Below are positions 33,425 to 38,317 of a stretch of DNA of 64,000 nucleotides, piece by piece. The stretch is from Escherichia coli. Lineage in GTDB: Bacteria; Pseudomonadota; Gammaproteobacteria; Enterobacterales; Enterobacteriaceae. The translations under genes were made by a program, and so were the position numbers. Within the stretch, counting starts at the first letter, position 1. Every line of letters starts with the position of its first letter. A model generated the notes under the pieces. It did not search any database. It was given only the letters and a program-made list of their open reading frames with translations, and was not told the origin of the DNA. Location of the stretch: the NCBI RefSeq assembly GCF_024502345.1, contig NZ_JALDNN010000001.1. One strand, 5' to 3'.

Positions 33425-33442
33425 TGAATCGCCACGGATAAT

Positions 33443-33909
33443 CTAGACACTTCCGAGCCGTTGATAATACTGGTTTTCATATTCTGTCGGTGACATCTGA
33501 TCGCTAGAACCATGCCGACGCCTACTGTTATAAAACATTTCGATGTAATCAAAAATATCGCTGCGGGCTTCTTCCCGCGTTCCGTAGATCTTTTTCTTTA
33601 TCCGCTCGCGTTTCAGTAACTGGAAAAAGCTTTCTGCAACCGCGTTATCGTGGCAGTTACCACGACGGCTCATGCTGCCCTCCAGTCCGTGTGATTTCAG
33701 GAACGACTGCCACTCATGGCTTGTGTACTGACTGCCCTGATCCGAGTGAACCAGCACCTGTTTTTGGGGGTTACGCCGCCATACAGCCATCAGCAGTGCG
33801 TTCAGGACAATGTCCTTTGTCATCCGGGATTGCATTGACCAGCCGATAATTTTACGTGAGAACAGATCAACAACCACGGCAAGATACAGCCAGCCTTCGT
33901 GAGTCCTGA
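33443..33909 (-). pseudogene. IS3-family transposase OrfB, 3' exon-like segment downstream of the intron
   Basis: ...[30 protein letters not shown]...HSDQGSQYTS...GNCHDNAVAESFF... (DDE domain). Confidence 0.8.
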
Positions 33910-36179
33910 GTAGAGTAAGAGGCAGGGCGTAGTCGGACTATTTCCCTGCCTCTCCTCCCCGAACCGGACGTGCACCTTTCAGCGCATCCGGCTCTCCATT
34001 TAAATGCTGGCGAACGCCATTGCCACTTCTGTAAAGCGCGATGTATACGTGTTTCTGGTCTCCGTCCTCAGATAGGGATTACCTTCGGGTAGCCGCCAGC
34101 GGAACAGCTTCTTGCCTTGCCCCACCAACCGGTACAGTATTTCGCCGCTGAGCTTGCCGTGATTGGTTTTACCAAATAAAACCCACGTTTTGCTCTGACC
34201 CGGTTTCGGTGATTTACACCACCACCTCATCAGGGAAGCGATACCTGTACGGTATTTGCGGGCCAGCCAGTGAGCCAGCTTCCAGAACACGACACGGTCG
34301 ATATAACTGAAGACTTTGGCCTTAAAATCAACGAACTGATAGAACATAGCCCAGCCTTTCAGTTTTCGGTTGAGTTGTTCAGCCATATCGACTTTGCTTT
34401 CACTGTAGTTGCCTGATAACAGTGCTGTCAGCGATGCGGCGAAGTTTCTGGCTTTCTCCTGCGGGATCGTTGAGACCACTCGCATCTCGCCATAACGACT
34501 GCGTTTGCGAATGATCCTGTGCCCCAGAAAGATAAAGCCGTCATTAACATGGGTGATTTTAGTCTTATCCATGTTCAGCCTGAGTTTCAGACTGCCTTCG
34601 AGCACACCCCGACACTCCTCCCTGATGGCTTCCGCCTGTGCTTTGGTGCCTTTGACGATGAGGACAAAATCATCGGCATAGCGGCAGTACGCCACCGCGG
34701 GTTTCCACTGCCAGTTTTCTCTGACCGCCGTACTTCGGCCCCGTTGGATACTGTTATTCCAGTACCACCGATCTTTTCTGGCTTTCCCGCTCAGGTAGCG
34801 CTCATGCAGGTATTGATCGAACTCATTCAGCATGATGTTCGATAATAGCGGCGATATAACACCGCCCTGTGGCACACCTTCACTGGCCGCCCGAAAGAGA
34901 CCGACATCGATATGTCCCGCCTTGATGGTTTTCCACAGCAGAGTCATGAAACGTGCGTCACTGATCCTGCGGCGTACAGCCTTCATCAGCAGTCGATGAT
35001 GTACGGTGTCGAAGTAACTGGACAGGTCGCCTTCAATCACCCAGCGTCCCCGGGTTTCACCACAGTCTGTGAGCTGTAATTTCACCGTGCGGATCGCGTG
35101 GTGGACACTGCGCTCAGGCCGGAAGCCATATGAGAGCGTATGAAAATCACTCTCCCATATCGGCTCCATCGCCATCAGCATGGCCCGCTGAACAATACGA
35201 TCCCGCAACGCGGGGATACCCAGTGGTCGCAGTTTGCCGTTGCTTTTAGGGATGTAAACCCGTCTGGCGGGCAAGGGCTGGTAGTGGCCTGAGAGTAATT
35301 CATCCCTGAGGATTTGCAGCTCAACAGCCAGTCTGGCCTGTAGCATTGTTTTGTTCACGCCATCAACGCCGGGGGTATGGGCCCCCTTTGATGAAAGCGT
35401 GATCCGCGCCGCTTCAGCCAGCCATTCTGGTTGTGTTATCAGACGCAGCAGCCGTTGAATCCGTAGGGACGGATCGGTGGCTGCCCATGTGGCAAGCTTG
35501 CGTTGCATTTCGCTGATTATCAAAGGTCTTCACCTCGTTAGGTCAGTTAATTCACGTCGCAAACACATTCAAACTGCTTCCCTTCGCCATGTAATGGGCT
35601 TTCCCCATCGCGGACTACTACGGAAGCTCCGCCAGCCAGCGCGTCATCGGAGCCATGCCCCCTTAACATCCGTCGCTGACCTTCCCCGGTTTACCTGCCT
35701 GGACTCAGGCATACTGAGGAGGCTGCCCGTCGCACTCTTTATCCTTGCTTGCCGCAAGTTGGCAGAAGTCAGCAACGCAAGCGTGATAGACGCTGCTGCC
35801 CCGGTGTTTCGCATACATGTCAAAACACCTTCGACCGGCAGTGCTTACGTATCACTGCCAGTTCCTCCTGCACGGCCTGTCAGATCACGTAGGCCGTGGT
35901 GACGTTTTCAACCCACAGAGGCGGATTAACGGGTTCATGTTCTTCAGCCTTTCAGTACTTAACCTTGAGGATCATCTCGGCTTAGTGATCTCGCCTCAAT
36001 CCCCGTTGTCAGCGGGTTACATCACCCTGCGGGCATGCCGCAGGTCACTGCCGCTCAGGTTCTCCACCGTCACACCCGGTGGGATTGTTGGGTTTCTCAT
36101 CGTGAGTTACCGGTTCAATATTCCAGACAGACTCGCGGTTCATTTAAGCATCCATGCCCGCCCTGAACTCCGGGCACAC
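33910..36179 (-). mobile_element. bacterial group II intron (about 2.27 kb) inserted in IS3-family orfB
   Basis: 5' end GUGUG immediately after exon codon ...DITY; 3' end ...CUAC (AY); domain V GAGCCGGATGCGCTGAAAGGTGCACGTCCGGTTC about 50 nt from the 3' end; internal RT/maturase ORF; joining the flanks restores in-frame ...[16 protein letters not shown].... Confidence 0.85.
34000..35523 (-). CDS. group II intron-encoded reverse transcriptase/maturase
   Basis: 507 aa; RT motifs including ...YCRYADDFVLIV... (YADD box) and a C-terminal maturase region; no HNH endonuclease Cys cluster seen. Confidence 0.9.
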   Translation of the reverse strand: MIISEMQRKLATWAATDPSLRIQRLLRLITQPEWLAEAARITLSSKGAHTPGVDGVNKTMLQARLAVELQILRDELLSGHYQPLPARRVYIPKSNGKLRPLGIPALRDRIVQRAMLMAMEPIWESDFHTLSYGFRPERSVHHAIRTVKLQLTDCGETRGRWVIEGDLSSYFDTVHHRLLMKAVRRRISDARFMTLLWKTIKAGHIDVGLFRAASEGVPQGGVISPLLSNIMLNEFDQYLHERYLSGKARKDRWYWNNSIQRGRSTAVRENWQWKPAVAYCRYADDFVLIVKGTKAQAEAIREECRGVLEGSLKLRLNMDKTKITHVNDGFIFLGHRIIRKRSRYGEMRVVSTIPQEKARNFAASLTALLSGNYSESKVDMAEQLNRKLKGWAMFYQFVDFKAKVFSYIDRVVFWKLAHWLARKYRTGIASLMRWWCKSPKPGQSKTWVLFGKTNHGKLSGEILYRLVGQGKKLFRWRLPEGNPYLRTETRNTYTSRFTEVAMAFASI

Positions 36180-36611: not shown

Positions 36612-37832
36612 TGTAGATTCAATTGGTCAACGCAACAGTTATGTGAAAACATGGGGTTGCGGAGGTTTTTTGAATGAGACGAACATTTACAGCAGAGGAA
36701 AAAGCCTCTGTTTTTGAACTATGGAAGAACGGAACAGGCTTCAGTGAAATAGCGAATATCCTGGGTTCAAAACCCGGAACGATCTTCACTATGTTAAGGG
36801 ATACTGGCGGCATAAAACCCCATGAGCGTAAGCGGGCTGTAGCTCACCTGACACTGTCTGAGCGCGAGGAGATACGAGCTGGTTTGTCAGCCAAAATGAG
36901 CATTCGTGCGATAGCTACTGCGCTGAATCGCAGTCCTTCGACGATCTCACGTGAAGTTCAGCGTAATCGGGGCAGACGCTATTACAAAGCTGTTGATGCT
37001 AATAACCGAGCCAACAGAATGGCGAAAAGGCCAAAACCGTGCTTACTGGATCAAAATTTACCATTGCGAAAGCTTGTTCTGGAAAAGCTGGAGATGAAAT
37101 GGTCTCCAGAGCAAATATCAGGATGGTTAAGGCGAACAAAACCACGTCAAAAAACGCTGCGAATATCACCTGAGACAATTTATAAAACGCTGTACTTTCG
37201 TAGCCGTGAAGCGCTACACCACCTGAATATACAGCATCTGCGACGGTCGCATAGCCTTCGCCATGGCAGGCGTCATACCCGCAAAGGCGAAAGAGGTACG
37301 ATTAACATAGTGAACGGAACACCAATTCACGAACGTTCCCGAAATATCGATAACAGACGCTCTCTGGGGCATTGGGAGGGCGATTTAGTCTCAGGTACAA
37401 AAAACTCTCATATAGCCACACTTGTAGACCGAAAATCACGTTATACGATCATCCTTAGACTCAGGGGCAAAGATTCTGTCTCAGTAAATCAGGCTCTTAC
37501 CGACAAATTCCTGAGTTTACCGTCAGAACTCAGAAAATCACTGACATGGGACAGAGGAATGGAACTGGCCAGACATCTAGAATTTACTGTCAGCACCGGC
37601 GTTAAAGTTTACTTCTGCGATCCTCAGAGTCCTTGGCAGCGGGGAACAAATGAGAACACAAATGGGCTAATTCGGCAGTACTTTCCTAAAAAGACATGTC
37701 TTGCCCAATATACTCAACATGAACTAGATCTGGTTGCTGCTCAGCTAAACAACAGACCGAGAAAGACACTGAAGTTCAAAACACCGAAAGAGATAATTGA
37801 AAGGGGTGTTGCATTGACAGATTGAATCTACA
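36612..37832 (+). mobile_element. IS30, complete (1221 bp)
   Basis: Terminal inverted repeats TGTAGATTCAATTGGTCAACGCAACAG at 36612 and its reverse complement ending at 37832; one 383-aa transposase ORF. Confidence 0.9.
36674..37825 (+). CDS. IS30 transposase
   Basis: 383 aa, MRRTFTAEEKASVFELWKNGTGFSEIANILGSKPGTIF..., recognised as the E. coli IS30 transposase. Confidence 0.95.
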   Translation: MRRTFTAEEKASVFELWKNGTGFSEIANILGSKPGTIFTMLRDTGGIKPHERKRAVAHLTLSEREEIRAGLSAKMSIRAIATALNRSPSTISREVQRNRGRRYYKAVDANNRANRMAKRPKPCLLDQNLPLRKLVLEKLEMKWSPEQISGWLRRTKPRQKTLRISPETIYKTLYFRSREALHHLNIQHLRRSHSLRHGRRHTRKGERGTINIVNGTPIHERSRNIDNRRSLGHWEGDLVSGTKNSHIATLVDRKSRYTIILRLRGKDSVSVNQALTDKFLSLPSELRKSLTWDRGMELARHLEFTVSTGVKVYFCDPQSPWQRGTNENTNGLIRQYFPKKTCLAQYTQHELDLVAAQLNNRPRKTLKFKTPKEIIERGVALTD

Positions 37833-38089
37833 GCGGCTTTTTTTAATATGTCCCGTTCGTCGGTAACCCGCTTCAGCTCTTTCTGAAGGCGGCGGATCTC
37901 GGTCTGAGCATCTGACTGTTCTTTATTAGTGGAAGAATCCGGGCCGTACTTCTTTATCCAGGCGTAAAGGCTGTGGGTGGTGATATCGAGACGTGTTGCA
38001 ACGCTGGCAACAGAATAACCGCGATCAACAACCTGTTTGACTGCTTCAATTTTAAACTCTTCGGGATAACGCTTACCGCTCATGGGCAC
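37833..38089 (-). pseudogene. IS3-family transposase OrfA, interrupted near its 3' end by IS30
   Basis: MSGKRYPEEFKIEAVKQVVDRGYSVASVATRLDITTHSLYAWIKKYG...ILKKAAV then IS30; the continuation (YFAKLSD*) lies on the other side of IS30 near 36585..36611. Confidence 0.8.
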
Positions 38090-38317
38090 CTCTCTTTAAG
38101 CCATCTTAAATGACTCTGAGGTGTCTGTTAAACCCGTGGCGATTCAAGAAGGTTGAATATGATTCCCGACTCATTAATGGAACGCTGCATGATGTTATGC
38201 ATTACGGGTTGACATTACGATGTGACGGGCCGGGTTAGCTGTATGGAGCCTGTACACAAGTTTGTGTAATTGCCTGATTTTGATATGTTCAATTCAACAT
38301 CAAAAGCAGGTTACTTT

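What the first reader, a model, noticed from the sequence alone, without database searches (positions are those of the whole stretch)
33425..38146. IS3-family element invaded twice: a precisely inserted group II intron and IS30
The intron (33910..36179, minus strand) starts with GUGUG right after the DITY codons of orfB, ends in AC, and carries a canonical domain V and an RT/maturase ORF. Joining the flanking exons restores the in-frame sequence [21 protein letters not shown], so splicing would reconstitute the transposase. A complete 1221-bp IS30 separately splits orfA. This is a clean natural example of an intron homing into a transposase gene and of mobile elements nested three deep.
Basis: partly seen in the sequence, partly recalled or inferred. 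Interest (0 to 1): 0.6.

Follow-up and report, generated by a model that had tools for sequence, protein, structure and literature searches.

The report
Intron and IS30 nested in IS3-family element
A 1.2-kb jumping gene of the IS3 family has been broken by two other mobile elements, the group II intron E.c.I4 and IS30; each sits at the spot it habitually targets, the same nest recurs in many enterobacterial genomes including E. coli K-12, and so the finding is real but ordinary.

Summary
Window 33425..38146 is a 1229-bp IS3-family insertion sequence on the minus strand. It carries a 2270-nt group II intron (33910..36179, minus strand) and a complete 1221-bp IS30 (36612..37832, plus strand, 2-bp duplication GC). 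Removing both restores a gap-free 1229-bp element that matches intact copies.

The intron is E.c.I4, a bacterial class A intron without an endonuclease domain. It sits at its published homing site, the D-x-T-Y codons of IS3-family transposases.

IS30 lies 3 nt after the A AAA AAA frameshift heptamer. Splicing would therefore mend orfB but could not restore the OrfAB transposase, and the host element is dead in cis.

The nest is not rare:
- 52 complete E. coli genomes and several Citrobacter, Enterobacter and Klebsiella plasmids carry it.
- K-12 MG1655 has the same arrangement (IS911A::IS30A plus the ykfC intron remnant).
- The host arms differ by 1.5-4% between copies, while the invaders differ by 0.2% or less. 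This points to repeated independent invasion.

The IS3 frameshift window matches the half-site consensus of IS30. That match explains the recurrence and is the only mildly new point.

The parts
33425..38146 (-). Whole composite: a 1229-bp IS3-family insertion sequence plus its two invaders (4722 bp).
   Evidence: The inverted repeats TGAATCGCCACGG... lie at both ends. The reconstituted element is gap-free against intact copies.
33425..33457 (.). Inverted repeat at the orfB end of the IS (imperfect, about 33 bp).
   Evidence: Read directly from the sequence. The same end sequence occurs in all related loci.
38114..38146 (.). Inverted repeat at the orfA end of the IS. It holds a promoter-like match at 38131..38103 on the minus strand.
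33443..33909 (-). orfB 3' part (exon 2): ...[15 protein letters not shown]... to the stop codon. It carries the second D and the E of the DDE triad.
   Evidence: Translations. The fused OrfAB matches NF033516 over positions 1-369 of 369.
33910..36179 (-). Group II intron E.c.I4 (2270 nt, bacterial class A).
   Evidence: It is 99.78% identical to the E.c.I4-2b copy of E24377A listed in PMC3522654 supplement 4, and 100% identical to plasmid copies.
33910..33996 (-). Intron domains V and VI.
   Evidence: Rfam RF00029, 64.9 bits.
34000..35508 (-). Intron-encoded reverse transcriptase/maturase (502 aa, no endonuclease domain). It occupies intron nt 672-2180, in domain IV.
35911..35917 (-). Candidate EBS1, 5'-UGUGGGU-3' (intron nt 263-269).
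   Evidence: It pairs 7 of 7 with the last 7 exon nucleotides in three different host ISs. It is the unique best segment in the first 600 nt, scoring 21 against 16 for the next best. This rests on complementarity only.
36180..36611 (-). orfB 5' part (exon 1), ending ...W-V-T-D-I-T-Y (the first catalytic D region). It also holds the last 9 codons and the stop codon of orfA (stop codon ends at 36582).
36612..37832 (+). IS30, complete, 1221 bp. The transposase ORF is 36674..37825.
   Evidence: NF033563, 276 bits against a cut-off of 80.
36610..36611 (.). Left copy of the 2-bp IS30 target duplication (GC).
37833..37834 (.). Right copy of the 2-bp IS30 target duplication (GC).
37838..37844 (-). A AAA AAA programmed -1 frameshift heptamer of the IS3-family element, 3 nt from the IS30 target duplication.
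   Evidence: The frames are shown.
37835..38083 (-). orfA 5' part (83 of 92 codons; helix-turn-helix and most of the leucine zipper).

Best explanation
A resident 1229-bp IS3-family insertion sequence was hit independently by two site-specific mobile elements, each at its own preferred target inside the transposase genes.

(1) The intron. E.c.I4 is a class A group II intron whose protein has reverse transcriptase and maturase domains but no endonuclease domain. It retrohomed in the sense orientation into its canonical site, after the D-I-T-Y codons of orfB. It recognised the exon by base pairing: candidate EBS1 UGUGGGU with IBS1 ACCUACA, with a conserved T at +1.

(2) IS30. IS30 inserted by its usual circle-mediated pathway, making a 2-bp duplication. 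The site is the sequence TATTAAAAAAAGCC[GC], 3 nt past the frameshift heptamer. This sequence is a near-perfect match to the half-site that IS30 prefers everywhere else.

Consequences:
- The host IS cannot make OrfAB, because IS30 lies between the slippery site and orfB. It is dead in cis whether or not the intron splices.
- Its ends are intact, so it could still be moved in trans.
- Both invaders are intact and potentially active.

Shown here: the boundaries, the identities of the three elements, the target duplications, and the recurrence in other genomes.
Inferred: the order of events, the retrohoming mechanism, and splicing competence.
For: Identity and boundaries.

Canonical homing site:
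- E.c.I4 copies in IS911-type and IS629-like hosts sit at the homologous codon.

Recurrence and independence:
- The intron-only form of this IS is found as full-length single-piece matches in 9 records. The IS30-only form is found in 346 genomes. Both together are found in 52 genomes.
- Four composites at four different sites have perfect 3-bp duplications: GCT, AAA, AGT and CTT.
- Host arms differ by 16-49 of 1231 nt between copies of this IS. One variant differs by 127-138 nt. Introns differ by 6 of 2270 nt or fewer, and IS30 by 3 of 1221 nt or fewer.
- A 90%-identical IS30H sits at the same dinucleotide.

IS30 target:
- IS30 sits at the homologous position in IS911A (K-12), IS911B/IS600 (K-12) and a fourth IS3 member. 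In two hosts it is found in both orientations.
- 52 of 78 IS30 ends in viral contigs lie in IS3 frameshift windows.
- The consensus of the 14 distinct non-IS3 flanks, TaaTaAAAAAGGCcA, equals the IS3 window TATTAAAAAA(A/G)GCNNC.
- Every A6R found within 0-12 nt of an IS30 end was at a spacing of exactly 5 nt.
Against: - The window copy has no 3-bp target duplication (CTG against AGA), so it cannot be shown that the IS was invaded at this location.
- EBS2/IBS2 could not be assigned.
- No transcript or splicing data exist.
- Low divergence of the intron and IS30 could partly reflect gene conversion with other copies rather than recent arrival.
- Counts from genome collections include many related strains and are not independent events.
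Confidence: 0.85

Rival explanations
1. One reading: the intron is a benign passenger, and its splicing restores a working transposase, so the IS remains functional.
For: The exon junction is in frame and the reconstituted orfB has no other lesion. The intron and its protein are intact and identical to the commonest copies.
Against: IS30 separates the slippery heptamer from orfB. The orfA reading frame runs into IS30 and terminates (ORF 37745..38089). OrfAB therefore cannot be translated from any transcript of this copy, spliced or not.
Confidence: 0.04
2. The nest arose once and has spread as a 4.7-kb unit, mobilised in trans by transposase from intact copies of the same IS or carried on larger elements. 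On this reading the window copy arrived already nested.
For: - Both IS ends are intact.
- Composites occur at many unrelated sites.
- Four of them have perfect 3-bp duplications.
- Matches in other genomes end exactly at the IS ends.
Against: - Arms of the composites differ from each other as much as they differ from intron-only and IS30-only copies (15-30 nt). The invaders are about ten-fold less diverged.
- Different IS30 variants and different IS3 hosts show the same insertion points.
- The window arms are 38-49 nt away from every other copy of this IS examined.
Confidence: 0.15
3. The structure is an assembly artefact, in which repeated elements were mis-joined.
For: None specific. Repeats in general invite misassembly.
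Against: The same junctions, to the base, occur in dozens of independently finished genomes and plasmids, including K-12 MG1655. A target duplication is present for IS30.
Confidence: 0.01

Closest known systems
E.c.I4 (and its 99%-identical relative S.f.I1), a bacterial class A group II intron of Escherichia/Shigella
   Same: - 99.8-100% nucleotide identity.
- Length of 2270 nt, close to the 2271 nt listed for published copies.
- An RT/maturase protein without an endonuclease domain.
- Sense-orientation insertion at the D-x-T-Y codons of IS3-like transposases.
   Different: The host here is a 1229-bp IS3-family member that PGAP leaves unnamed. I could not establish whether it is one of the hosts listed in PMC3522654 (IS629, IS911, ISEc16, ISEc31).
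IS911A::IS30A plus ykfC in the CP4-6 prophage of E. coli K-12 MG1655
   Same: - An IS3-family element with IS30 inserted 3 nt after the slippery heptamer (2-bp duplication AC).
- E.c.I4 at the homologous orfB codon, GACCTATA|GTGTG.
- Intron 99.8% identical to the window copy.
   Different: - The host is IS911, which shares no detectable nucleotide similarity with the arms here.
- IS30 is in the same orientation as the IS rather than opposite.
- The intron is cut after 1764 nt by IS5A, and the rest of IS911 is lost.
IS30 'hot-spot' targeting (Olasz and co-workers; summarised in PMC9333248)
   Same: - A 2-bp duplication.
- A nearly palindromic, GC-cored, A/T-flanked site (GCCG|CGGC here).
- Insertion in either orientation.
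   Different: The papers I could read do not say that the IS3-family frameshift window is such a hot spot. They only note that IS911 in K-12 is interrupted by IS30A.
Other group II introns that home into insertion sequences, as listed in PMC3522654: E.c.I2 and E.c.I9 in 'Rsh IS' (ISEc1-5) and E.c.I3 in IS679
   Same: The strategy is the same: the intron targets a repeated, dispensable, horizontally mobile gene.
   Different: These are different introns with different target sequences and different host IS elements.

Membership tests
Group II intron (E.c.I4, bacterial class A) | Conserved ends: 5' GUGYG and 3' AY | tested here: met
   GUGUG...CUAC on the minus strand at 36179 and 33910.
Group II intron (E.c.I4, bacterial class A) | Catalytic domain V with domain VI | tested here: met
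   Rfam RF00029, 64.9 bits against a gathering score of 40, full model 1-77.
Group II intron (E.c.I4, bacterial class A) | Intron-encoded protein in domain IV with RT and maturase (X) domains | tested here: met
   RVT_1 E=2e-34 and GIIM E=1e-10. TIGR04416 scores 341 bits against a cut-off of 300. The ORF occupies intron nt 672-2180.
Group II intron (E.c.I4, bacterial class A) | No endonuclease domain (class A proteins lack it; PMC3552965) | tested here: met
   Pfam reports only RVT_1 and GIIM in the 502-aa protein. Absence of a hit is weaker evidence than a positive match.
Group II intron (E.c.I4, bacterial class A) | Near-identity to a published E.c.I4 copy | tested here: met
   99.78% over 2270 nt to NC_009801 4848623-4850893, which is E.c.I4-2b in supplement 4 of PMC3522654.
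Group II intron (E.c.I4, bacterial class A) | Exon recognition by EBS1-IBS1 pairing | tested here: met
   UGUGGGU (nt 263-269) pairs 7 of 7 with ACCUACA, ACCUAUA and ACCUACG of three hosts and is the unique best candidate. This is complementarity only, not a structural model.
Group II intron (E.c.I4, bacterial class A) | EBS2-IBS2 pairing | tested here: inconclusive
   No segment stands out.
Group II intron (E.c.I4, bacterial class A) | Self-splicing and retrohoming activity | not testable with these tools
   Needs RT-PCR or mobility assays.
IS3 family insertion sequence | orfA and orfB in frames 0 and -1 with a slippery heptamer in the overlap | tested here: met
   orfA spans nt 64-342 and orfB is open from nt 225 to 1211 in the -1 frame. 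The heptamer A AAA AAA lies at nt 303-309 of the reconstituted element.
IS3 family insertion sequence | DDE transposase of the IS3 type | tested here: met
   The conceptual OrfAB scores 433.9 bits against a cut-off of 160 on NF033516, over profile positions 1-369 of 369.
IS3 family insertion sequence | Terminal inverted repeats 5'-TG...CA-3' | tested here: met
   TGAATCGCCACGG... is present at both ends.
IS3 family insertion sequence | 3-bp target duplication | tested here: not met
   The window copy has CTG against AGA. Other copies of the same IS have it: GCT, AAA, AGT, CTT. Loss here fits later rearrangement: a relative keeps a 41-bp end of this IS in the opposite orientation at the same junction. 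This concerns the history of this copy, not the family assignment.
IS30 | 1221 bp with IS30 inverted repeats and near-identity to the K-12 element | tested here: met
   99.84% over 1221 nt to IS30A.
IS30 | Intact DDE transposase of the IS30 family | tested here: met
   A 383-aa ORF scoring 276 bits against a cut-off of 80 on NF033563.
IS30 | 2-bp target duplication at a hot-spot-like site | tested here: met
   GC/GC at the centre of GCCG|CGGC. The flank matches the consensus of other IS30 flanks.

The most novel reading that the evidence does not exclude
IS30 and its relatives systematically target the programmed-frameshift window of IS3-family elements. The conserved sequence TTA AAA AA(A/G) GCN is a near-perfect IS30 half-site. 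One IS family therefore recurrently disables another at the single point where OrfAB synthesis can be abolished while a truncated OrfA is left.

Together with E.c.I4 homing, this builds the same three-element nest again and again. The shared invaders then act as portable homology that recombines different IS3 members into chimeras.

I found no statement of this in the papers I could read. It may nevertheless be implicit in the older IS30 target-site literature, which I could not access.
Probability: 0.35. Interest if true: 0.4.

Novelty: already known. Interest (0 to 1): 0.22.

Why it matters
As given, the finding matters little. It is a correctly read textbook case of a group II intron living inside an insertion sequence, plus an ordinary IS-in-IS insertion.

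It is useful as a clean annotation: three pseudogene fragments that automatic pipelines label 'IS3 family transposase, incomplete' belong to one element.

The side result is of modest interest to people who study transposon ecology and IS annotation. Two site-specific invaders repeatedly assemble the same nest, and IS30 prefers the IS3 frameshift window. This explains why IS3-family 'fragments' next to IS30 and ltrA recur in enterobacterial genomes, and why chimeric IS3 elements arise.

Tried and rejected
- Naming the host IS. PGAP gives only 'IS3 family transposase', ISfinder is not available, and the papers did not settle it. The ED1a reference (NC_011745) is not in the collection.
- Reading Dai & Zimmerly 2002 (PMC101233) and Olasz 1997 (PMC179709). 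Neither is held. A search for 'GOHS' with IS30 found nothing.
- EBS2/IBS2 assignment. It was inconclusive.
- Looking for a second E.c.I4 homing site in the window. The pattern matched only the occupied site and four one-mismatch sites; 5 matches are within what shuffled sequence gives (3 of 100 shuffles reached 5). The other IS3-family element, at about 19.4-20.6 kb, was not matched.
- Looking for an empty site in relatives of the flanking island. Neither relative has the two flanks adjacent.
- The promoter/terminator scan gave fewer hits than shuffled sequence and adds little.
- About half of the 61 genome-collection hits to the IS30-end pattern are chance matches in AT-rich genomes and were set aside.
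Full report
**What is there.**
Window 33425..38146 is bounded by imperfect inverted repeats that begin TGAATCGCCACGG. Three stretches on the minus strand encode pieces of an IS3-family element: 38146..37833, 36611..36180 and 33909..33425.

Two insertions lie between these stretches.
- A 2270-nt sequence at 33910..36179 on the minus strand.
- A 1221-bp IS30 at 36612..37832 on the plus strand, flanked by a GC/GC duplication.

Removing both, plus one GC, gives a 1229-bp element with these features:
- orfA, 92 codons.
- orfB, open in the -1 frame.
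- An A AAA AAA heptamer in the overlap.
- No other lesion.

Two results confirm the reconstruction. The conceptual OrfAB fusion matches the NCBIfam IS3 transposase model end to end, at 433.9 bits against a cut-off of 160. The 1229 bp also align without gaps to intact 1229-bp copies, at 96-97% identity, in 184 complete E. coli genomes.

**The intron.**
- It begins GUGUG and ends AC.
- Domains V/VI match Rfam at 64.9 bits.
- Domain IV carries a 502-aa protein with RVT_1 and GIIM domains and no endonuclease hit.
- It is 99.78% identical to the copy that Leclercq and Cordaux list as E.c.I4-2b in E. coli E24377A.
- It is 100% identical to copies on E. coli and Klebsiella plasmids. 1431 plasmid records hold it at 99% identity or more.

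E.c.I4 is a class A intron (PMC3552965). [quoted passage not shown]

Flanks of other copies show the same site. They read ...GTG ACC TAT A|TC TGG in IS911 and ...TTT ACC TAC G|TC AGC in an IS629-like element, against ...ATA ACC TAC A|TC AGG here.

The intron segment UGUGGGU (nt 263-269) pairs with all three exon ends. It is the only good candidate for EBS1. EBS2 could not be assigned.

**IS30.**
It is 99.8% identical to IS30A of K-12 and has an intact transposase. It lies 3 nt after the heptamer, in the palindrome GCCG|CGGC, and in the opposite orientation to the host IS.

The consequence is that orfA reads into IS30 after codon 83 and stops 29 codons later. OrfAB cannot be made, so splicing would mend orfB only.

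**How common it is.**
- The whole 4722-bp composite is found at 80% coverage or more in 52 of 5426 complete E. coli genomes.
- It is also on plasmids of Citrobacter, Enterobacter and Klebsiella.
- Both intermediates exist. The same IS with only the intron gives 9 full-length single-piece matches. The same IS with only IS30, at the same dinucleotide, is in 346 genomes.
- E. coli K-12 MG1655 carries the same design in prophage CP4-6. IS911A is interrupted by IS30A 3 nt after A AAA AAG, with duplication AC. Then, 429 bp further on, E.c.I4 sits at GACCTATA|GTGTG. The first 1764 nt of that intron are the gene called ykfC, and the rest is cut off by IS5A.
- PMC9333248 notes that K-12 IS911 is interrupted by IS30A.

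**One origin or many.**
- Four composites at four unrelated sites have perfect 3-bp duplications: GCT, AAA, AGT and CTT.
- Their arms differ from each other by 18-27 of 1231 nt. That is as much as they differ from intron-only and IS30-only copies.
- One composite (L007) has arms only 86-95% identical to the window's.
- The window's arms are 38-49 nt away from every other copy of this IS examined.
- In contrast, the introns differ by 6 of 2270 nt or fewer and IS30 by 3 of 1221 nt or fewer.
- One composite carries IS30H, a 90%-identical variant, at the same position.

The invaders are therefore younger than the divergence of the arms. The simplest reading is repeated independent invasion of resident IS copies. 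Some trans-mobilisation of the unit and some gene conversion cannot be excluded.

Several loci are chimeras. In these, the arms on the two sides of IS30 or of the intron belong to different IS3-family members. This is as expected if the shared invaders serve as homology for recombination. PMC3522654 also records chimeric hosts.

**Why IS30 is at that spot.**
- In K-12, IS30D joins the frameshift regions of IS911B and IS600.
- A scan of one genome per species for heptamer + 5 nt + IS30 end found true IS30-family ends directly after '...(I/F/L)LKKA' of many unrelated IS3-family orfA genes. The hosts were Rahnella, Silvania, Tatumella, Kluyvera, Citrobacter, Yersinia, Microbulbifer, Saccharospirillum, Amphritea, Agaribacterium, Thiodiazotropha, Methylococcaceae and Desulfopila. 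The scan also returned AT-rich chance matches.
- In viral contigs, every A6R lying 0-12 nt from an IS30 end was at a spacing of exactly 5 nt.
- In the same collection, 52 of 78 IS30 ends lie on one side or the other of an IS3 frameshift window. Four different hosts are involved, two of them in both orientations.
- The 14 distinct non-IS3 flanks give the consensus TaaTaAAAAAGGCcA. This is essentially the IS3 window TATTAAAAAA(A/G)GCNNC.

These counts include related genomes and are not numbers of independent events. The diversity of hosts and the fixed spacing are the robust part. I found no paper in the held library that states this link. The original IS30 target-site papers could not be read.

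**Local history.**
- The window copy lacks a 3-bp duplication: CTG against AGA.
- Its left flank continues, in plasmid pMB18183_1, into a Cap15/nucleotidyltransferase pair that is absent from the window.
- Its right flank is preceded, in strain EH09-18-41, by a 41-bp remnant of the other end of the same IS, at the very same junction.

The copy therefore sits at a rearrangement joint in a heavy-metal-resistance island. Where it was invaded cannot be told.

**Verdict.**
The kind of feature is already known, and interest is low. The one modest lead is the IS30/IS3 frameshift-window hot spot.

Noticed in passing
window 37833..37849 (site); loci L019, L020, L026-L138: IS30 and related elements sit at one fixed position, with the target duplication at nt +4 and +5 after the A AAA AAR slippery heptamer. 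This holds in many unrelated IS3-family members and in both orientations. The IS3 frameshift window matches the consensus of other IS30 flanks. 52 of 78 IS30 ends in viral contigs are at such sites.
   Followed up: partly
L019 (NC_000913.3 270206..273955): E. coli K-12 MG1655 carries the same nest. IS911A is split by IS30A, and E.c.I4 sits at the homologous orfB codon. The gene ykfC is the first 1764 nt of that intron and is cut by IS5A.
   Followed up: yes
L009, L010, L011, L015, L018: Chimeric hosts. The IS3-family arms on the two sides of IS30 or of the intron belong to different members (1229-bp type, IS911, IS629-like). This implies recombination through the shared invaders.
   Followed up: partly
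window 33422..33424 and 38147..38149; L002 8960..9000; L003 12925 onward: There is no 3-bp duplication around the window copy. A relative (EH09-18-41) keeps a 41-bp end of the same IS in the opposite orientation at the identical right junction. Another relative (pMB18183_1) continues from the left junction into a Cap15/nucleotidyltransferase (CBASS-like) pair that is missing here. The IS marks a rearrangement or deletion joint.
   Followed up: partly
L017 (NZ_AP021894.1), L025 (NZ_AP026384.1), hits H2, H8 and H9: Nests four deep. The intron itself is split by an IS4-like IS421 in L017. An extra insertion of about 1.5 kb lies between IS30 and the orfA arm in L025. IS66-family genes lie inside the composite in NCTC9040 and others.
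   Followed up: no
window 19446..20566 (+), with Rfam IS1222_FSE at 19676..19793: A second IS3-family element, different from the first, with the IS1222-type frameshift pseudoknot (156.6 bits). The scan for the E.c.I4 target pattern did not match it. An IS1 InsB-like fragment lies just upstream, at 18953..19330 on the minus strand.
   Followed up: partly
window 38300..39030: Directly right of the composite there is an IS256-family transposase remnant with in-frame stops. It abuts a truncated type VI secretion sheath gene (tssB) on the minus strand. Both are annotated as pseudogenes in the 100%-identical relative EH09-18-41.
   Followed up: no
window 32589..33407 (-): The left flank holds two short MFS-transporter fragments, annotated as separate small CDSs in pMB18183_1. 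The IS end lies 17 nt beyond the start codon of the second fragment.
   Followed up: no
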